DNA of 14,578 bases from a virus. The stretch's first letter is position 1; every line of letters begins with the position of its first letter. Under the pieces are notes generated by a model, which searched no databases, was not told the DNA's origin, and worked only from the letters and a program-made list of their open reading frames with translations. This document shows positions 1 through 7,236 of this stretch, one piece after another. The stretch lies in the UHGV virus genome UHGV-0349585; one strand, given 5' to 3'. A program made the position numbers and the translations under genes.

Positions 1-456
1 TCCAGGCTTTGGCTTTAGCCGCTTCGGTTCATCAGCTCTGATGCCAATCCACGTGGTGTAATTCCCTCGCCCGAAATGGTCATCACAGTATTTGGTGAAG
101 GGAACGAGTTTTAATCTGTCAGTGCAGAACGCGCCGCCGACGTATGGAGTGCCATATTTCTTTACCATATCGATAAATGGCTTCAGAACAGGCATTCGCG
201 TCTGAATATCCTTTGGTTCCCATACCGTATAACCATTTGGCTGTCCAAGCTCCGGGTTGATATCAACCTGCAATACGGTGAGCGGTATATCCCAGAACTT
301 CACAACTTCCCTGACAAACCGATATGTCATTGGATGTTCACAACCTGTATCCATGAAAACGTAATGCACGTCTTTACCTGCCCGTCGCTTTTGCTCCATT
401 AGCCAGAGCAAATATGCTGACGTCCTGCCACCGGAGAAACTAACGACATTTATCAT
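1..456 (-). CDS. NinC-position protein with PP-loop (PAPS-reductase-like) N-terminus; partial, C-terminus beyond window edge
   Basis: Minus-strand ATG at 456-454 overlaps ninB stop (ATGA); my own translation begins MINVVSFSGGRTSAYLL, containing an SGGxxS PP-loop motif; open to position 1. Confidence 0.55.
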   Translation of the reverse strand, partial: MINVVSFSGGRTSAYLLWLMEQKRRAGKDVHYVFMDTGCEHPMTYRFVREVVKFWDIPLTVLQVDINPELGQPNGYTVWEPKDIQTRMPVLKPFIDMVKKYGTPYVGGAFCTDRLKLVPFTKYCDDHFGRGNYTTWIGIRADEPKRLKPKPG

Positions 457-893
457 GCAGCCCTGTCTCCCCATCTCGCTTTCCACTCCAGAGCCAGTCG
501 CGCTTCGTCTGACCACTTAACGCCACGCTCTGTACCGAATGCCTGTATAAGCTCTAATAGCTCCGCAAATTCGCCTACACGCATCCTGCTGGTTGACTGG
601 CCTATTACCACAAAGCCATTCCCGTCAAGGTTAGGAACAACGTCCTGCTGCTTTAATGCTGCGGTAAACACACACTTCCAGCTTTCTGCATCCAGCCAGC
701 GACCATGCCATTCAACCTGACGAGAGACGTCACCAAGGCAAGCCCAAAGCTTTCGATTCTGGTCTAAGCTGCGGTTGCGTTCCTGAATGGTTACTACGAT
801 TGGTTTGGTTGGGTCTGGAAGGATTTGCTGTACTGCGTGAATAGCGTTTTGCTGATGTGCTGGGGATCGAATTTCAAAGGTTAGTTTTTTCAT
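453..893 (-). CDS. ninB: NinB (Orf-family recombination mediator), 146 aa
   Basis: ORF-track protein MKKLTFEIRSPAHQQNAIHAVQQ... matches lambda NinB as I recall it, same length and same position upstream of ninC. Confidence 0.85.
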   Translation of the reverse strand: MKKLTFEIRSPAHQQNAIHAVQQILPDPTKPIVVTIQERNRSLDQNRKLWACLGDVSRQVEWHGRWLDAESWKCVFTAALKQQDVVPNLDGNGFVVIGQSTSRMRVGEFAELLELIQAFGTERGVKWSDEARLALEWKARWGDRAA

Positions 894-1086
894 GACTTCC
901 CTCTCTAACAGATTTCAGGTTATTCCACTCCGTTACCGCACTGCGATAATTCGCGGCCGCCACAACAGCGTGGTTAGCGCAGTAGATTTGGCACCCGTTC
1001 TCCATGTCTAATATTGTCGGTGATTTTCCGCACTTACATTTTTTGGCACGCGGTGCGTCTGAACACATTCCGTTAACGGTGTTCAT
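874..1086 (-). CDS. Small Cys-rich (putative zinc-binding) protein in the ren position
   Basis: 70-aa ORF with CKCG...C..YC pattern; GAGGGG-like RBS upstream of ATG at 1086; overlaps ninB start by 20 nt; not lambda Ren. Confidence 0.4.
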   Translation of the reverse strand: MNTVNGMCSDAPRAKKCKCGKSPTILDMENGCQIYCANHAVVAAANYRSAVTEWNNLKSVREGSHEKTNL

Positions 1087-1111
1087 CAGGATACCCCTCG
1101 TTCTTAATCCA

Positions 1112-1145
1112 ATAAAAAAGGGCTACTGTGTAAATAGCCCCTGTT
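1112..1145 (-). terminator. Intrinsic terminator downstream of the helicase gene (tR2-like position)
   Basis: On minus strand: GGGCTA/TAGCCC stem with 7-9 nt loop followed by a T6 run, between helicase stop (1168) and next gene. Confidence 0.55.
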
Positions 1146-1167
1146 ATTAGCTCAGTGATGTAGATGG

Positions 1168-2544
1168 TCATACGTCCGCCCCTTGTGCATATCGTCTGCC
1201 ACGTGCAGCGGGTGCATTTGATGCTGTGCAAATCTGTCTGGCTTCATCCTGGTCACATGCAACAAAGTGTCCGTTGCAGAACCGCTGGTAAACCGTACCA
1301 AGCGAGCCAAAACGGTTTTTCGTCACGATGATTTCAGCAAATGGCGCGGCGCTACTGTTCTCGTCATATACAGCTTCCCGATAGAGCATGATGATTGAGT
1401 CTGCGTCCTGTTCAATGCTTCCTGAATCACGCAAATCTGCGTTTGTCGGGCGTTTGTTTGGTCGCTTCTCAACATCGCGTGAAAGCTGACTCAGGGAGAT
1501 AACAGGCGTTTTCAGGTCTTTCGCCATCGCCTTCAGGCTTCCGGAGATGTGAGCAATTGCGAGGTCGTTGCGATCTGCTTTCGGCTTCTCAATCAGGCCA
1601 AGATAATCCGCCATGATGAGTGACAGGTTGGGATTTTCCTGTTTGTGCCGCTCTGCGATTGAGCGAATTTCTTCTACCGATAACCGCGAGGCATCGACTA
1701 CCCATACATCCAAATCTGCAAGCTGACTCATGCCGTTAGCAACACGCGCCCAGCCTTCGTCATCCATCGATGCAGGATTTCGCAGTACGCTAACCGACAT
1801 CCTCCCGGCGTTGGCAATGCTTCGCTCTGCAATCTGCAATGCGCTCATTTCCATTGAGAAAATCAATACCCCGCGCCGGACGTCAGAACCAGGGATAACG
1901 CGGCTTGCAACGCCTTCGGCAATCTTCAGCGCCAGCTCGGTTTTCCCCATACCAGGACGAGCAGCGATTATCACAAGGTCTTCCGCGTTCATCCCTCCGG
2001 TGATAGCGTCAAGTTCTTCGATTCCGGTCTTCAGGGTATCTGACTCTTCTCCGTTCCTCAGACGCCTGTCAAGCGTGTCAGTGTAGTCAGTGATGATTTC
2101 CCCTAACCGTACAGGTTTAACCTCGTCACGGGGCTTTCTGATGGCTGAAAGACGCTTTACAAGTTCATCCATCGCCTGACTCGATGCGTCGATGGTTCCG
2201 CTCTGAATTGGTTCACGCATTTCATCCATGATTTCCAGCACCAGACGGCGGTGATAGTTATCCGCGACCATTCCGGCATATCCCTTCAGGTTTGCGGCAC
2301 TCGGGCAGTTTTTGCTGGTCATCAGGATTGACGTGAAATGCTCCTCTCCGCACGCCTCGGCAACCATCAGCGCGTCGATTAGGTTTCTGTTTCTCGCCTG
2401 CTTGCGGATAACCTCGAAGGCTTTCCGGTAGAGCGGAATTGAAAACGCTTCCGGCTCCAGCGTTGCCAGAACGTCACTGGCAGTTGGTGTTAATCCACCA
2501 ATCAGCAAGCCACCGATAACGCTCGCTTCGATATCCTGTTTCAT
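1168..2544 (-). CDS. Replicative DNA helicase, DnaB family (phage-encoded, P22 gene 12-like rather than lambda P)
   Basis: 458 aa; Walker A ARPGMGKT; DnaB-like N-terminal and RecA-like C-terminal layout; start overlaps O-like stop (ATGA at 2541-2544). Confidence 0.85.
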
Positions 2545-3371
2545 GCAATCCCCCTGTCTGCAAACTTCCCTTCCCGTACTCCCGTTAACGAATCTTCCCT
2601 CAGCAGGTAATCAAAATCTGCCGTCCAGCCCGTGTCGTTGTCTCCGAAGTAAAACGGCTTGGCCTGATGCACAAACGCCCTGACATACGCTCTGAAACCG
2701 TCCACGTTTGGCGTTTTCAGTTGCGGGATGATTTTCTTCAGGCGGCGTTTGCGTTTCTCGTTGACCGCAACAGCATGTGGAAGTCTGTCACCGACTTCGG
2801 TGTTGTAGGCGTTCAGGAAGGATTCGTAGTCGATTCGTTCTGCCTTGCGACGTTCAGGTTTAACCTGCCCATCGCCGCCCCCGTTAGGGGGTAAGGGGGT
2901 ATTTGTATTTATTGTCTTTTGTATATTGTCTTTTGTGTTTGACTGATTCGGTAAATTGCTTTTTACCGATTTGGTGAAGGTTTGTTTTACCGAATTGGTA
3001 AATGTTTTACCGAATCCGTTAACTTTCGTTTTCCACTCGGAAATGTTTGTATTCATACCAACTTGACGCCCCACCTGAATGAGAACTCCCATTCTGATAA
3101 GCTCGTTTTTGGCGGTAGAGCATTTGGTTGGTGCCATGCCAGTGAGTTCAGCGAACTGTTCGTTTCCGATCCAATCTATTTTTTTGTTGTAACCGTATGT
3201 CTTGCGCCACACAGCCATAACAATCAGTAACTGATGTAGAGTAAGTCCAGAAAGCATGGCGGCTTCTAACAGTGTGTTTGCAGTCCGAGTGTAGCCATCT
3301 TCGAGTTCTGCCACGCGATGCTCCACGACCTCCAGTTGAGGCCTGTAATCAGCTAACTTAACGACGCCCAT
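2541..3371 (-). CDS. Replication initiation protein, lambda O N-terminal-domain family, with iteron-encoded repeat segment
   Basis: 276 aa; [22 protein letters not shown] motif typical of phage O-like initiators; internal repeats [16 protein letters not shown] coincide with DNA iterons; AGGAG RBS before ATG at 3371. Confidence 0.8.
2898..3025. repeat. Origin of replication: iterons plus adjacent AT-rich tract inside the O-like gene
   Basis: TTTTACCGAAT core as three direct copies (about 2961, 2986, 3005) plus one inverted copy (2946-2955); AT-rich tract 2898-2940 with TGTCTTTTGT repeated. Confidence 0.65.
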
Positions 3372-3553: not shown

Positions 3554-3832
3554 TCAGGCCTCGAAGAATTCGCCGTTCTTCGGGGCTTTTTCTTTTGTCA
3601 GCATTCTGGCTACTTTCTTAGCCAGTTCCGCCAACTCCTCGTCTTCAACACCCCATTCAAGAACAGCCAGAAGCATTCCCATTTTTGGGATGAAGCTGTC
3701 TTTCCATCGCGAAATTTGCGATTCATTAATCCCTAACGCGTCGGCAACCTTTCGCTGACCACGTACAGCAATTCGATTCAGGATGTTGCTTGTAATTGCA
3801 TTCGCTTTCTTGCGAGTACTTGTAAGTTGCAT
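3554..3832 (-). CDS. cII: CII-like transcriptional activator (92 aa), diverged from lambda CII
   Basis: Conserved core ALGINESQISRWK...FIPKMGMLLAVLEWGV resembles lambda CII; ATG at 3832 preceded by the lambda-like leader CTAAGGAAATACTTACAT; ORF-track frame extends further upstream but this start has the RBS. Confidence 0.75.
   Translation of the reverse strand: MQLTSTRKKANAITSNILNRIAVRGQRKVADALGINESQISRWKDSFIPKMGMLLAVLEWGVEDEELAELAKKVARMLTKEKAPKNGEFFEA
3557..3596 (+). terminator. Strong intrinsic terminator on the strand antisense to cII, overlapping the cII 3' end (oop-RNA-like arrangement)
   Basis: About 11-bp stem GGCCTCGAAGAA/TTCTTCGGGGC with 7-nt loop, followed directly by TTTTTCTTTT on the plus strand. 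Confidence 0.55.
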
Positions 3833-3859
3833 ATGTAAGTATTTCCTTAGATAACAATT

Positions 3860-3900
3860 GATTGAATGTATGCAAATAAATGCATACACCATAGGTGTGG
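3860..3900 (-). terminator. tR1 region hairpin between nutR and cII
   Basis: Perfect 8-bp inverted repeat TGTATGCA/TGCATACA (3867-3888) plus adjacent CACC..GGTG palindrome; matches lambda tR1 region as I recall it. Confidence 0.5.
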
Positions 3901-3950: not shown

Positions 3951-4160
<210 letters not shown>

Positions 4161-5264: not shown

Positions 5265-5660
5265 ATGCACTTGAAGTTGTTAGGGCTGACCCAGCCTGCT
5301 GTTTCTTTAGAGCTTGCCGAGCGATACATCAACGCAACTGAGCCGAAGCCTAGCGACAGCAGCATTACTGCATATAAAAGCCGCATGGAAAGTGCAATCA
5401 AAAAGTTTGTAGCTTTCCAGTCTGGTGAAGAAATCCCATACACTCCGATTGACAAAGAATCCAGTGAGGAAAAAGATTTGACTGGCGAACCAACAAAAGT
5501 CGAAGGCAAGGCTAATGCACTTCATACCTATGATCTTCCAGTAGTTCTTCGACCTGAATCAGGGGTTACAGTAACGATTAAAGGCATTCCTAACGATATC
5601 ACAAACGAAGAAGCCGAACGCATCTCTTCAATTCTGAAGGTTTACGTTCGGCCTCAATAA
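5265..5660 (+). CDS. Hypothetical protein (131 aa) in the slot occupied by rexA/rexB in lambda
   Basis: Longest ORF between cI and the timm-like terminator, co-oriented with cI; acidic and Lys-rich composition; weak RBS; two antisense ORFs overlap it, so coding status is uncertain. Confidence 0.35.
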   Translation: MHLKLLGLTQPAVSLELAERYINATEPKPSDSSITAYKSRMESAIKKFVAFQSGEEIPYTPIDKESSEEKDLTGEPTKVEGKANALHTYDLPVVLRPESGVTVTIKGIPNDITNEEAERISSILKVYVRPQ

Positions 5661-6765: not shown

Positions 6766-7236
6766 ATGACAATATCATGGAGCGTACCTTTTCCTGAATC
6801 AGAAACTGAACATGATGGAATGCCTGTTTTCTGGAGATTCCAGGCGACAGTTGAAGAATATGGAATCAAAATATTCGCACTTCAATATATAGCTTTTCAT
6901 CAGACAGAGCATTATGCATGGTTGGTTCCTGCGCATTGGATTGTTAATTTTAAACCAGCACCAAATCAGTGGTTACAGGAATGGAAACAAAAGAGAAATA
7001 GATATGCAATTAAGAAAGTAGCAAAAAATGCAGAAAGATCTTTTGCATTCCCAACGAAGAAACTTGCCATTGAAAGTTTATTGCGCCGGAAGAAATACCA
7101 TTTAATGAGAATCAAACAAGATTTGGCTGTTGTATCAACTCTTGTTGATGGGATGAAGAATATTGATACATCAACACCAGATATTGAATATAACTTTGGA
7201 CACAACCAAGAAACAGAAAATTGGGTATTTTATTAG
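6766..7236 (+). CDS. Hypothetical protein (156 aa), AT-rich accessory gene directly downstream of N
   Basis: GAGGTGAG RBS then ATG 8 nt after N stop; visibly AT-rich versus neighbours (by eye); no motif I recognise; Trp/His-rich N-terminal half, Lys/Arg-rich middle. Confidence 0.7.
   Translation: MTISWSVPFPESETEHDGMPVFWRFQATVEEYGIKIFALQYIAFHQTEHYAWLVPAHWIVNFKPAPNQWLQEWKQKRNRYAIKKVAKNAERSFAFPTKKLAIESLLRRKKYHLMRIKQDLAVVSTLVDGMKNIDTSTPDIEYNFGHNQETENWVFY

What the first reader, a model, noticed from the sequence alone, without database searches (positions are those of the whole stretch)
874..1086. Cys-rich small protein replaces Ren upstream of ninB
A 70-aa ORF with a four-Cys arrangement (CKCG...C...YC) overlaps the ninB start. 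Lambda has ren at this position, which protects against Rex exclusion. A different small zinc-binding protein here, in a phage lacking rexAB, may be another exchangeable accessory function.
Basis: inference. Interest (0 to 1): 0.3.

Follow-up and report, generated by a model that had tools for sequence, protein, structure and literature searches.

The report
HK97 gp60-type small cysteine-rich nin gene
The 70-codon ORF is a real, strongly conserved small cysteine/histidine-rich phage gene, a near-identical copy of the uncharacterised HK97 gene 60, that sits as a swappable accessory cassette just before the recombination gene ninB; it does not take the place of lambda's ren.

Summary
A 70-aa ORF lies on the minus strand at 874-1086 with C17-x-C19-G...C32-x3-C36-x2-H39 (plus C8), and it overlaps the ninB start by 20 nt. 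It is 96% identical to HK97 gp60 (PHROG 6308, function unknown). Diverged homologues differ almost only at third codon positions (4/5/33), so it encodes a protein under strong purifying selection. The family is tiny and confined to enterobacterial lambdoid prophages.

'Replaces Ren' is not supported. Ren lies upstream of the tR2 terminator. This gene lies downstream of a tR2-equivalent hairpin (1118-1142), and six related loci carry a Ren-related gene and gp60 together. 'Exchangeable accessory function' is supported: gp60 is one of several cassettes (DUF7301, phiTE_015, Lar-like) shuffled at the head of the nin region.

My best guess at mechanism is a zinc ribbon plus C-terminal helix resembling Lar/RalR (PF14354). 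The ligand and A..WN positions align, a Lar gene occupies the same slot in Stx phages, and AlphaFold2 on a mixed alignment gives pLDDT 75. However, Pfam does not match, the profile scores are not significant against shuffles, and the structure model is circular. Function remains untested. This is an ordinary, already catalogued hypothetical gene of low interest.

The parts
874..1086 (-). CDS, 70 aa, orthologue of HK97 gp60 (NP_037742.1); PHROG 6308
   Evidence: ORF. It is 96% identical to HK97 gp60. PHROG 6308 matches at E 9.9e-52 over positions 1-70 of 70. Codon-position differences are 4/5/33 against L014.
913..1038 (-). Conserved core, residues 17-58: CxCG knuckle, predicted three-stranded sheet, CxxH or CxxxC knuckle, and a helix carrying the invariant NYRSAVxEWN
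   Evidence: Invariant columns. AF2 on the mixed alignment gives E24-28, E31-36, E40-44 and H47-55 with pLDDT 80-88 over residues 11-60. MAFFT aligns C17, C19, C36 and W54 with the Lar family.
1048..1080 (-). Family-specific conserved N-terminal motif (D)TVNGMCSDAP, including invariant C8
   Evidence: N5-K16 is invariant in alignments A1 and A2. NGMCSD is kept in the most divergent member, L015. It has no counterpart in Lar proteins.
1094..1099 (-). Shine-Dalgarno-like GAGGGG, 7 nt upstream of the ATG
   Evidence: Read directly from the sequence and conserved in HK97. The G run is polymorphic among relatives.
1108..1142 (-). Intrinsic-terminator-like hairpin (10-bp stem, 5-nt loop) plus U tract. 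It sits where lambda/434 have tR2 and is a different hairpin sequence.
   Evidence: Terminator scan. RNA fold gives -18.3 kcal/mol, z -2.6. The alignment with 434, where a terminator is annotated in the corresponding segment between the same conserved flanks (the hairpin sequence itself differs). Identical in 51 of 58 IMG/VR loci examined.
1073..1171 (-). Tiny 32-aa ORF (HK97 gp56, called 'ninA' in CUS-3; PHROG 5907) that contains the terminator hairpin. It overlaps the helicase stop and the gp60 start.
   Evidence: Its first 10 codons are shared with lambda/434 orf26. Whether it is translated is unknown.
906..1140 (-). Mosaic module (alternative hairpin plus the gp60 body) that stands in place of lambda/434's 41-bp tR2 hairpin segment. 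The flanks at 1141-1171 and at 905 and below are shared with 434.
   Evidence: Three-way DNA alignment of window, 434 and HK97.
453..893 (-). ninB (Orf-family recombination mediator). Its start and ribosome-binding site lie inside the 3' end of the gp60 ORF, so the variable gp60 tail (residues about 60-70) is encoded by sequence that lambda also has.
   Evidence: Pfam NinB E 4.6e-55. The sequence GAGAGGGAAGTCATGAAAAAACT is shared with 434.
1168..2544 (-). DnaB-type replicative helicase, the last gene of the replication module. The ren slot between it and the terminator is empty here.
   Evidence: Pfam DnaB_C E 9.5e-78. HK97 annotation.

Best explanation
This is a genuine delayed-early gene of the rightward operon of a lambdoid prophage or phage, orthologous to HK97 gene 60.

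Shown: it is protein-coding and under strong purifying selection. It has its own Shine-Dalgarno sequence. It lies just downstream of a tR2-equivalent intrinsic terminator. Its stop overlaps the ninB start by 20 nt. It moves between phages as a small cassette at the head of the nin region.

Inferred from position: it should be expressed only after N-mediated antitermination and should be translationally coupled to ninB.

Inferred from conservation and a biased model: residues about 17-58 fold as a small zinc ribbon. The CxCG knuckle (C17/C19) and a second knuckle (C36-x2-H39, or C32/C36) would hold one Zn. A C-terminal helix follows, whose invariant face NYRSAVxEWN is the likely binding surface.

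Lead, not proven: this is the architecture of the Lar/RalR family (PF14354). That family occupies the same slot in Stx phages, and its founding member alleviates type I restriction. The most likely mode of action is therefore a small host-directed binder of the Lar type, that is, anti-restriction or host takeover, made during lytic growth.

Approximate confidences: real protein-coding gene 0.97. Accessory cassette distinct from the ren slot 0.9. Metal-binding ribbon-type fold 0.7. Lar-like fold or origin 0.4. Restriction alleviation as the function 0.2.
For: Coding: codon-position differences are 4/5/33, 6/9/37 and 7/10/37 against three diverged homologues, and dN is 0.07-0.19 with synonymous sites saturated.

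Identity: PHROG 6308 matches at E 1e-51, and the protein is 96% identical to HK97 gp60.

Position: terminator hairpin, alignment with 434 and 80 IMG/VR loci.

Cassette behaviour: present in 146 of 5426 E. coli genomes, with variable neighbours DUF7301, phiTE_015 and Lar.

Metal ligands: C8, C17, C19, C32, C36 and H39 are invariant.

Lar lead:
- MAFFT, without guidance, aligns C17, C19, C36 and W54 (plus K15, A50, N55) with the invariant Lar positions, and H39 falls on Lar's fourth Cys.
- hhalign gives full-length co-linear alignments with P 0.007 and 0.0096.
- A Lar HMM scores 2-6 bits.
- AF2 on the mixed alignment gives pLDDT 75.3 and pTM 0.61, with three strands and a helix, against 55.6 on the gp60-only alignment.
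- The named BFVD matches include Lar proteins.
- A PF14354 gene lies immediately upstream of and overlapping ninB in Stx phages 2851, 1717 and PA28.
- A PF14354 gene lies directly next to the gp60 homologue in L013 and is present in L077.
Against: No Pfam, NCBIfam, PADLOC or PDB-sequence match, even at E 10. PHROGs keeps family 6308 apart from the Lar family 599.

Against composition-preserving shuffles the Lar similarity is not significant. 5.75% of column shuffles reach the hhalign score, and 1.5-12% of sequence shuffles reach the HMM score. hhalign probability is only 4-5%. BLASTP against the adjacent Lar of L013 finds nothing.

The confident AF2 model used an alignment that contained Lar proteins, so it is circular. 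No Foldseek match reaches E 0.001.

gp60 has a CxC rather than CxxC first knuckle. It also has two extra invariant Cys (C8, C32) and a conserved N-terminal motif that Lar lacks. gp60 and Lar co-occur, so they are not simple alternatives.

The function of Lar itself is disputed: restriction alleviation, as cited within PMC4041452, versus a DNase toxin as that paper reports. No experiment on any gp60 family member was found.
Confidence: 0.45

Rival explanations
1. It is a small metal-binding protein unrelated to Lar, and the similarity is convergence of short Cys-rich ribbons. It would have some other role, such as a DNA- or RNA-binding regulator or a binder of a different host target.
For: Lar similarity is not significant against shuffles. 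Pfam and PHROGs do not link the families. gp60 has family-specific features: C8, C32, the TVNGMCSD motif and CxC spacing. gp60 and Lar co-occur.
Against: The co-linear match covers all ligand positions plus the A..WN helix motif. Lar occupies the same genomic slot in Stx phages. The sequence is accepted in a Lar-type fold by AF2.
Confidence: 0.3
2. It is an accessory partner of the NinB/Orf recombination mediator, co-translated with it and acting in phage recombination.
For: There is a 20-nt overlap with ninB. 71 of 80 IMG/VR loci have gp60 directly before NinB. Homologues that are 74-80% identical sit before NinB-type genes that are only 22-38% identical, and one sits before a DUF1367-type NinB analogue. 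Lar-like genes also abut recombination genes: ninB in Stx phages and recT in Rac.
Against: At least 8 loci have one to three other genes between gp60 and NinB. Most lambdoid phages have NinB without gp60, including lambda, 434 and 21. Adjacency is also explained by both genes lying at the tR2 to nin-region mosaic junction.
Confidence: 0.12
3. It is a RalR-like toxic nuclease or other growth-inhibitory host-takeover protein.
For: The founding Lar-family member RalR was reported as a non-specific DNase toxin (PMC4041452). gp60 is expressed only behind a terminator.
Against: This depends on the unproven Lar relationship. No antitoxin-like RNA or Rfam hit was found in the window. The gene is carried in many prophages with no sign of a partner gene.
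Confidence: 0.08
4. One reading: a functional substitute for Ren, meaning protection from Rex-type exclusion, or a replacement in the ren slot.
For: It lies between the replication genes and ninB, and the window has no rexAB.
Against: It lies on the other side of the tR2-type terminator from the ren slot. It co-occurs with Ren-related genes in 6 of 80 loci and with MarR/Ren-like genes in L004, L012 and L013. It has no similarity to Ren.
Confidence: 0.03
5. It is a chance ORF created by the overlap of the ninB leader and a terminator-flanking insert, and is not translated.
For: PGAP leaves it unannotated in at least one RefSeq E. coli genome. Its last 10 or so codons are simply the ninB ribosome-binding site and 5' end read in another frame.
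Against: Third-position-dominated divergence and saturated synonymous sites with 74-83% protein identity. Cys and His are invariant. There is a good Shine-Dalgarno sequence.
Confidence: 0.02

Closest known systems
HK97 gp60 (NP_037742.1) / PHROG 6308. The same gene is in HK446, HK544, mEp506, CUS-3, HF4s, IME10, Salmonella phage 29485 and Stx2_5044.
   Same: 94-97% protein identity, the same length, the same flanking orf32/terminator and ninB, and the same 20-nt overlap.
   Different: Three amino-acid differences from HK97 (N2D, L26F, V41A). The gene downstream of ninB differs: a methyltransferase in HK97 and a different gene in the window. No member has a known function.
Lar / RalR family (Pfam PF14354 Lar_restr_allev, PHROG 599). 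Rac prophage RalR (b1348) is the founding member.
   Same: Size is 60-80 aa. It has an N-terminal C-x(1-2)-C-G knuckle, a beta hairpin, a second knuckle about 17 residues later, and a helix with A-x3-W-N. It is a phage accessory gene. A member sits in the same tR2-ninB slot, overlapping ninB, in Stx phages.
   Different: The Pfam model does not match. Profile similarity is not significant against shuffles. gp60 has CxC instead of CPFCG and His instead of the fourth Cys. It has extra invariant C8 and C32 and a conserved N-terminal motif. It co-occurs with true Lar genes.
Lambda/434 Ren (PHROG 142)
   Same: A small accessory gene between the replication genes and ninB in lambdoid phages.
   Different: Ren has a different fold class (winged-helix/MarR-like N-terminus) and no similarity to gp60. 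It lies upstream rather than downstream of tR2. A Ren relative can be present together with gp60.
NinF and other small Cys-rich nin-region proteins
   Same: Small Cys-rich ORFs of the nin region with unknown function.
   Different: No detectable similarity, and a different position in the operon.

Membership tests
HK97 gp60 family (PHROG 6308) | Full-length match to the family profile | tested here: met
   E 9.9e-52 over positions 1-70 of 70.
HK97 gp60 family (PHROG 6308) | High identity and synteny with the type member | tested here: met
   96% identity, and the same orf32 - gp60 - ninB arrangement.
Lar / RalR (Pfam PF14354) | Score at or above the Pfam gathering threshold | tested here: not met
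   No PF14354 hit for seven family members, even at E 10.
Lar / RalR (Pfam PF14354) | Significant profile-profile or HMM similarity to a diverse Lar alignment | tested here: inconclusive
   hhalign gives P 0.007-0.0096 and probability 4-5%, with a co-linear alignment over 44-50 columns. However, 5.75% of column shuffles score as well. The HMM scores 2-6 bits, with shuffle p of 0.015-0.12.
Lar / RalR (Pfam PF14354) | Four metal ligands in two knuckles about 17 residues apart | tested here: inconclusive
   C17, C19 and C36 align with Lar Cys 1-3 and H39 aligns with Cys 4. The first knuckle is CxC, not CxxC. Some Lar members also lack the fourth Cys.
Lar / RalR (Pfam PF14354) | C-terminal helix with the A-x3-W-N-x-R motif | tested here: met
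   A50-V-T-E-W54-N55 aligns with the Lar AxxxWN. The Arg two residues after N is Leu in gp60.
Lar / RalR (Pfam PF14354) | Ribbon-plus-helix fold | tested here: inconclusive
   AF2 with a mixed gp60 and Lar alignment gives pLDDT 75.3, three strands and a helix. The gp60-only alignment gives 55.6 and an all-helical, meaningless model. The mixed alignment makes the test circular.
Lar / RalR (Pfam PF14354) | Alleviates type I restriction or enhances modification, or has DNase toxin activity | not testable with these tools
   Needs plating and biochemical assays.
Ren (PHROG 142) | Sequence similarity to Ren | tested here: not met
   BLASTP finds no alignment, and PHROG 142 is not hit.
Ren (PHROG 142) | Position between the replication gene and tR2 | tested here: not met
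   gp60 is downstream of the terminator. Ren relatives co-occur with it.
Zinc-ribbon proteins (generic) | Metal binding by conserved Cys/His | not testable with these tools
   Six invariant Cys/His.

The most novel reading that the evidence does not exclude
The gp60 family is a highly diverged Lar-type domain that existing models miss. On this reading, Lar-type ribbons placed directly in front of recombination genes (ninB/Orf in lambdoid phages, recT in Rac) form a conserved functional pairing. A possible purpose is to protect unmodified recombinant or replicating phage DNA from type I restriction while recombination proceeds.
Probability: 0.12. Interest if true: 0.45.

Novelty: already known. 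Interest (0 to 1): 0.2.

Why it matters
The practical value is modest.

First, it corrects the map. The slot between tR2 and ninB is a separate accessory site from the ren slot, and it holds a rotating set of small genes: gp60, DUF7301, phiTE_015-like and Lar-like.

Second, the gene is real, but current automatic annotation misses it in at least one RefSeq E. coli genome.

Third, it gives a testable lead for a family with no known function. The lead is a Lar-like zinc ribbon, hence anti-restriction or host takeover. The exact HK97 gp60 sequence is seen on at least 1000 public contigs.

If the Lar link were confirmed, it would widen a poorly understood anti-restriction family. It would not open a new field.

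Tried and rejected
- Pfam, NCBIfam, PADLOC and PDB-sequence searches gave no hits.
- An exhaustive HMMER profile search of 1.84 billion representatives found only 8 family members and no bridge to another family. The word-indexed search found 16 clusters.
- AF2 on the gp60-only alignment gave pLDDT 55.6 and was unusable.
- Foldseek against the PDB found nothing meaningful. Foldseek against BFVD found nothing at E 0.001 or below.
- Literature searches for HK97 gp60, its accession, its locus tag and the PHROG id found nothing relevant.
- Rfam found no hit in the window.
- A scan of GTDB species-representative genomes gave only one spurious 15-residue match.
- The 90% cluster of HK97 gp60 has 'HNH endonuclease' members. 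This looked like a lead that gp60 is a fragment of an endonuclease. I rejected it because those proteins are a NinB N-terminus fused to an HNH insert and share nothing with gp60.
- Direct BLASTP against NinF, Ren and the neighbouring Lar found no alignments.
- Obligatory coupling to NinB was weakened by loci with intervening genes.

Full report
**1. What is there**

Genes run on the minus strand in the order of a lambdoid rightward operon:
- cro, 3951-4151
- cII, 3554-3892
- an O-like initiator, 2541-3371
- a DnaB-type helicase, 1168-2544
- a 32-codon ORF, 1073-1171
- the ORF in question, 874-1086
- ninB, 453-893

The ORF encodes 70 aa: MNTVNGMCSDAPRAKKCKCGKSPTILDMENGCQIYCANHAVVAAANYRSAVTEWNNLKSVREGSHEKTNL. 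GAGGGG lies 7 nt before the ATG. The only addition is that the ORF is on the minus strand.

**2. Is it a gene?**

An ORF of this length is not remarkable on its own, because the window contains dozens of similar size. Comparison settles the question.

- The protein is 94-97% identical to an annotated gene in ten phages: HK97 gp60, HK446, HK544, mEp506, CUS-3, HF4s, IME10, Salmonella phage 29485, Stx2_5044 and PDP110P2.
- It matches PHROG 6308 ('unknown function') end to end at E 1e-51.
- I recovered the DNA of five more distant homologues, 56-83% identical at protein level, from public assemblies.
- Against these, differences fall overwhelmingly on third codon positions: 4/5/33, 6/9/37 and 7/10/37 over 62 codons. 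Synonymous sites are saturated while dN is 0.07-0.19.

That is the signature of a translated gene under strong purifying selection.

Invariant across all eight sequences are C8, C17, C19, G20, C32, C36, H39, the block NYRSAV and the pair W54-N55. The tail after residue 60 or so is variable. In the window it is simply the ninB ribosome-binding site and first codons read in another frame, from sequence that phage 434 also has without this gene.

**3. How widespread?**

The family is narrow.
- There are 16 clusters among 5.8 billion proteins.
- Only 8 representatives appear in an exhaustive HMMER profile search of 1.84 billion.
- No real hit appears in one genome per species of GTDB.

Within its niche it is common.
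- The exact HK97 gp60 sequence is on at least 1000 contigs, named only 'hypothetical' or 'prophage protein'.
- The gene is in 146 of 5426 complete E. coli genomes.
- IMG/VR holds at least 80 loci.
- In one RefSeq genome that I inspected, PGAP does not annotate it.

**4. Where exactly does it sit, and does it replace ren?**

The 32-codon ORF upstream (HK97 gp56, called 'ninA' in CUS-3) contains a 10-bp hairpin followed by a U tract at 1142-1108. The fold is -18.3 kcal/mol with z -2.6.

The alignment with phage 434 shows the following.
- The first 31 nt of this little ORF are shared with 434's orf26.
- The last 40 nt or so before and into ninB are also shared.
- 434's orf26 contains the annotated terminator. 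From my own knowledge, its sequence GGCCTGCTGGTAATCGCAGGCCTTTTTATTT is lambda tR2.
- Between those flanks 434 has only the 41-bp tR2 hairpin.
- The window has a different hairpin plus the gp60 body, at 906-1140.

In 434 the order is P - ren - tR2 - ninB. Here it is helicase - tR2-equivalent - gp60 - ninB. Ren is therefore on the promoter side of the terminator and gp60 on the far side, inside the N-dependent nin region.

The two slots are independent.
- Six of 80 IMG/VR loci carry a 96-aa Ren-related gene in the ren slot and gp60 downstream. That gene is 41% identical to 434 Ren over residues 1-58 and matches PHROG 1687 and PHROG 142.
- The divergent loci L004, L012 and L013 have a MarR-like gene after the replication gene as well as a gp60 homologue further on.
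- gp60 has no similarity to Ren.

The window does lack rexAB. There is only a 131-aa unknown ORF between cI and N. Nothing connects gp60 with Rex.

**5. Cassette behaviour**

In the 80 IMG/VR loci the terminator-bearing orf32 is always directly upstream.
- 71 loci have NinB directly downstream.
- 8 loci have DUF7301, a phiTE_015-like gene and/or a Lar-like gene in between.

Other orders also occur.
- L016 has DUF7301 then gp60 then NinB.
- L004 has DUF7301, a 64-aa ORF, phiTE_015, gp60 and then a NinB-like gene.
- L013 has gp60, then Lar, then NinB.

The downstream NinB-type genes range from 88% identity to undetectable similarity (a DUF1367-type analogue), while gp60 stays 56-83% identical.

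It weakens, without excluding, a specific partnership with NinB.

**6. What kind of protein?**

No curated family matches it.

Reading the sequence, I noticed the layout of the Lar/RalR family: C-x-C-G, a hairpin, C-x2-H and a helix ending A-x3-W-N. I tested this in several ways.

*Evidence in favour*
- Against a diverse Lar alignment, hhalign gives a co-linear, nearly full-length alignment in exactly that register. P is 0.007 over 44 columns and 0.0096 over 50 columns against 24 sequences.
- MAFFT, run without guidance on gp60 and Lar sequences, makes C17, C19, C36 and W54 invariant columns and K15, A50 and N55 nearly invariant. H39 falls on Lar's fourth Cys.
- The most divergent member, L015, even reads C-N-G-H where RalR reads C-N-G-C.
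- AlphaFold2 given the mixed alignment returns pLDDT 75.3, and 80-88 across residues 11-60. It predicts three strands and a C-terminal helix. The gp60-only alignment gave 55.6.
- Among the named BFVD matches several are Lar proteins, but the best E-value is only 0.08.

*Evidence against*
- The Pfam Lar model does not hit any of seven members at E 10 or below.
- hhalign probability is only 4-5%.
- 5.75% of column-shuffled gp60 alignments score as well.
- 1.5-12% of shuffled sequences reach the Lar HMM score.
- The AF2 and Foldseek results are circular, because the alignment contained Lar proteins.
- gp60 has features Lar lacks: C8, C32, the TVNGMCSD motif and CxC spacing.

*Genomic context adds independent but indirect support*
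- In Stx phages 2851, 1717, PA28, CP-1639 and SH2026Stx1, a PF14354 gene sits downstream of tR2, immediately upstream of ninB and overlapping it. That is the gp60 slot.
- In L013 a PF14354 gene directly follows the gp60 homologue.
- Many Lar proteins are tandem two-domain proteins.

My reading is as follows. A metal-binding ribbon-plus-helix fold is likely, at about 0.7. A Lar-type fold or origin is a reasonable lead, at about 0.4, and is not established.

**7. Mechanism proposed**

*Shown:* the gene is a conserved coding gene behind a terminator-like hairpin, it overlaps ninB, and it is mobile as a cassette.

*Inferred:*
- N-dependent delayed-early expression, translationally coupled to ninB.
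- One Zn held by C17/C19 and C36/H39, or alternatively C32/C36.
- An invariant helix face, NYRSAVxEWN, acting as the binding surface.
- Action as a small binder of a host target.

By analogy with Lar, the target would be a type I restriction-modification complex. RalR/Lar of Rac was first described as alleviating restriction and enhancing modification (King and Murray 1995, cited in PMC4041452). It was later reported to be a DNase toxin (PMC4041452). So even the analogy leaves the activity open. No experimental work on any gp60 family member was found.

**8. Verdict**

- The 'replaces Ren' interpretation is wrong on position and on co-occurrence.
- The 'exchangeable accessory gene' interpretation is right.
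- The gene is an already catalogued hypothetical (HK97 gp60, PHROG 6308), so novelty is low.
- The only new element is an unproven Lar-like reading.
- Interest is 0.2.

Noticed in passing
window 1073-1171 (-), hairpin 1118-1142: The 32-codon ORF annotated as gp56 or 'ninA' in HK97 and CUS-3 contains the tR2-equivalent terminator hairpin. Lambda/434 orf26 shares its first 10 codons but carries a different hairpin (classic tR2). Both versions stay open and read as hydrophobic peptides. Whether either is translated, or is only a by-product of the terminator sequence, is unclear.
   Followed up: partly
window 1087-1099 (-); proteins P0002, P0004, P0160: In some E. coli prophages a one-base difference in the G run of the gp60 Shine-Dalgarno (GAGGGG versus GAGGG) puts orf32 and gp60 in one frame. 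That gives 90-98-aa ORFs with a hydrophobic N-terminus fused to gp60 (20 member sequences, one on a 768-kb contig). None of the 80 IMG/VR loci had this. It could be real polymorphism or homopolymer sequencing error.
   Followed up: partly
L016 (NZ_CP128255.1) 1801-2013: RefSeq/PGAP leaves the gp60 gene unannotated between a DUF7301 gene and ninB, although it is intact and 99% identical to the window copy.
   Followed up: partly
proteins P0145-P0158 (cluster of HK97 gp60): The 90% cluster that holds HK97 gp60 is chimeric. Its 161-201-aa 'HNH endonuclease' members are a NinB N-terminus followed by an HNH endonuclease. This suggests an HNH gene inserted into or fused with ninB in some Salmonella and E. 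coli prophages. They share no sequence with gp60.
   Followed up: partly
window 5265-5660 (+): A 131-aa ORF of unknown function (PHROG 2602) is the only gene between cI and the N-like antiterminator. That is the position where lambda carries rexAB, so it is a candidate lysogen-expressed accessory or defence gene.
   Followed up: no
L004, L012, L013, L016, L069-L077: The head of the nin region holds a variable array of small cassettes in different orders and combinations: DUF7301, a phiTE_015-like gene (PF26207), a Lar-like gene (PF14354), gp60 and an unnamed 64-aa ORF. All lie before a NinB-type gene of one of three different families (PF05772, PHROG 72, DUF1367/PHROG 319).
   Followed up: partly
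window 874-1086 versus L004, L012, L013, L014: The proportion of synonymous differences is 0.8-0.95, at or above the random expectation of 0.75, while proteins are 74-83% identical and GC3 is the same (0.45-0.50). This is unusually deep silent divergence for such a conserved small protein.
   Followed up: no
L003 (E. coli K-12 Rac prophage) 2734-2928 and 6839-7009: Rac carries both RalR/Lar next to recT and a second small 'zinc-binding protein', YdaE, next to kilR. Small Cys-rich accessory proteins recur beside recombination genes in lambdoid elements.
   Followed up: no
window 988-1017 (+) and 1004-1150 (+): A weak sigma-70-like match (TTGGCA-16/18-AATATT/TATTGT) and a 48-aa ORF lie antisense to gp60. 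The number of promoter-like sites is within the shuffle expectation, so this is probably chance.
   Followed up: no
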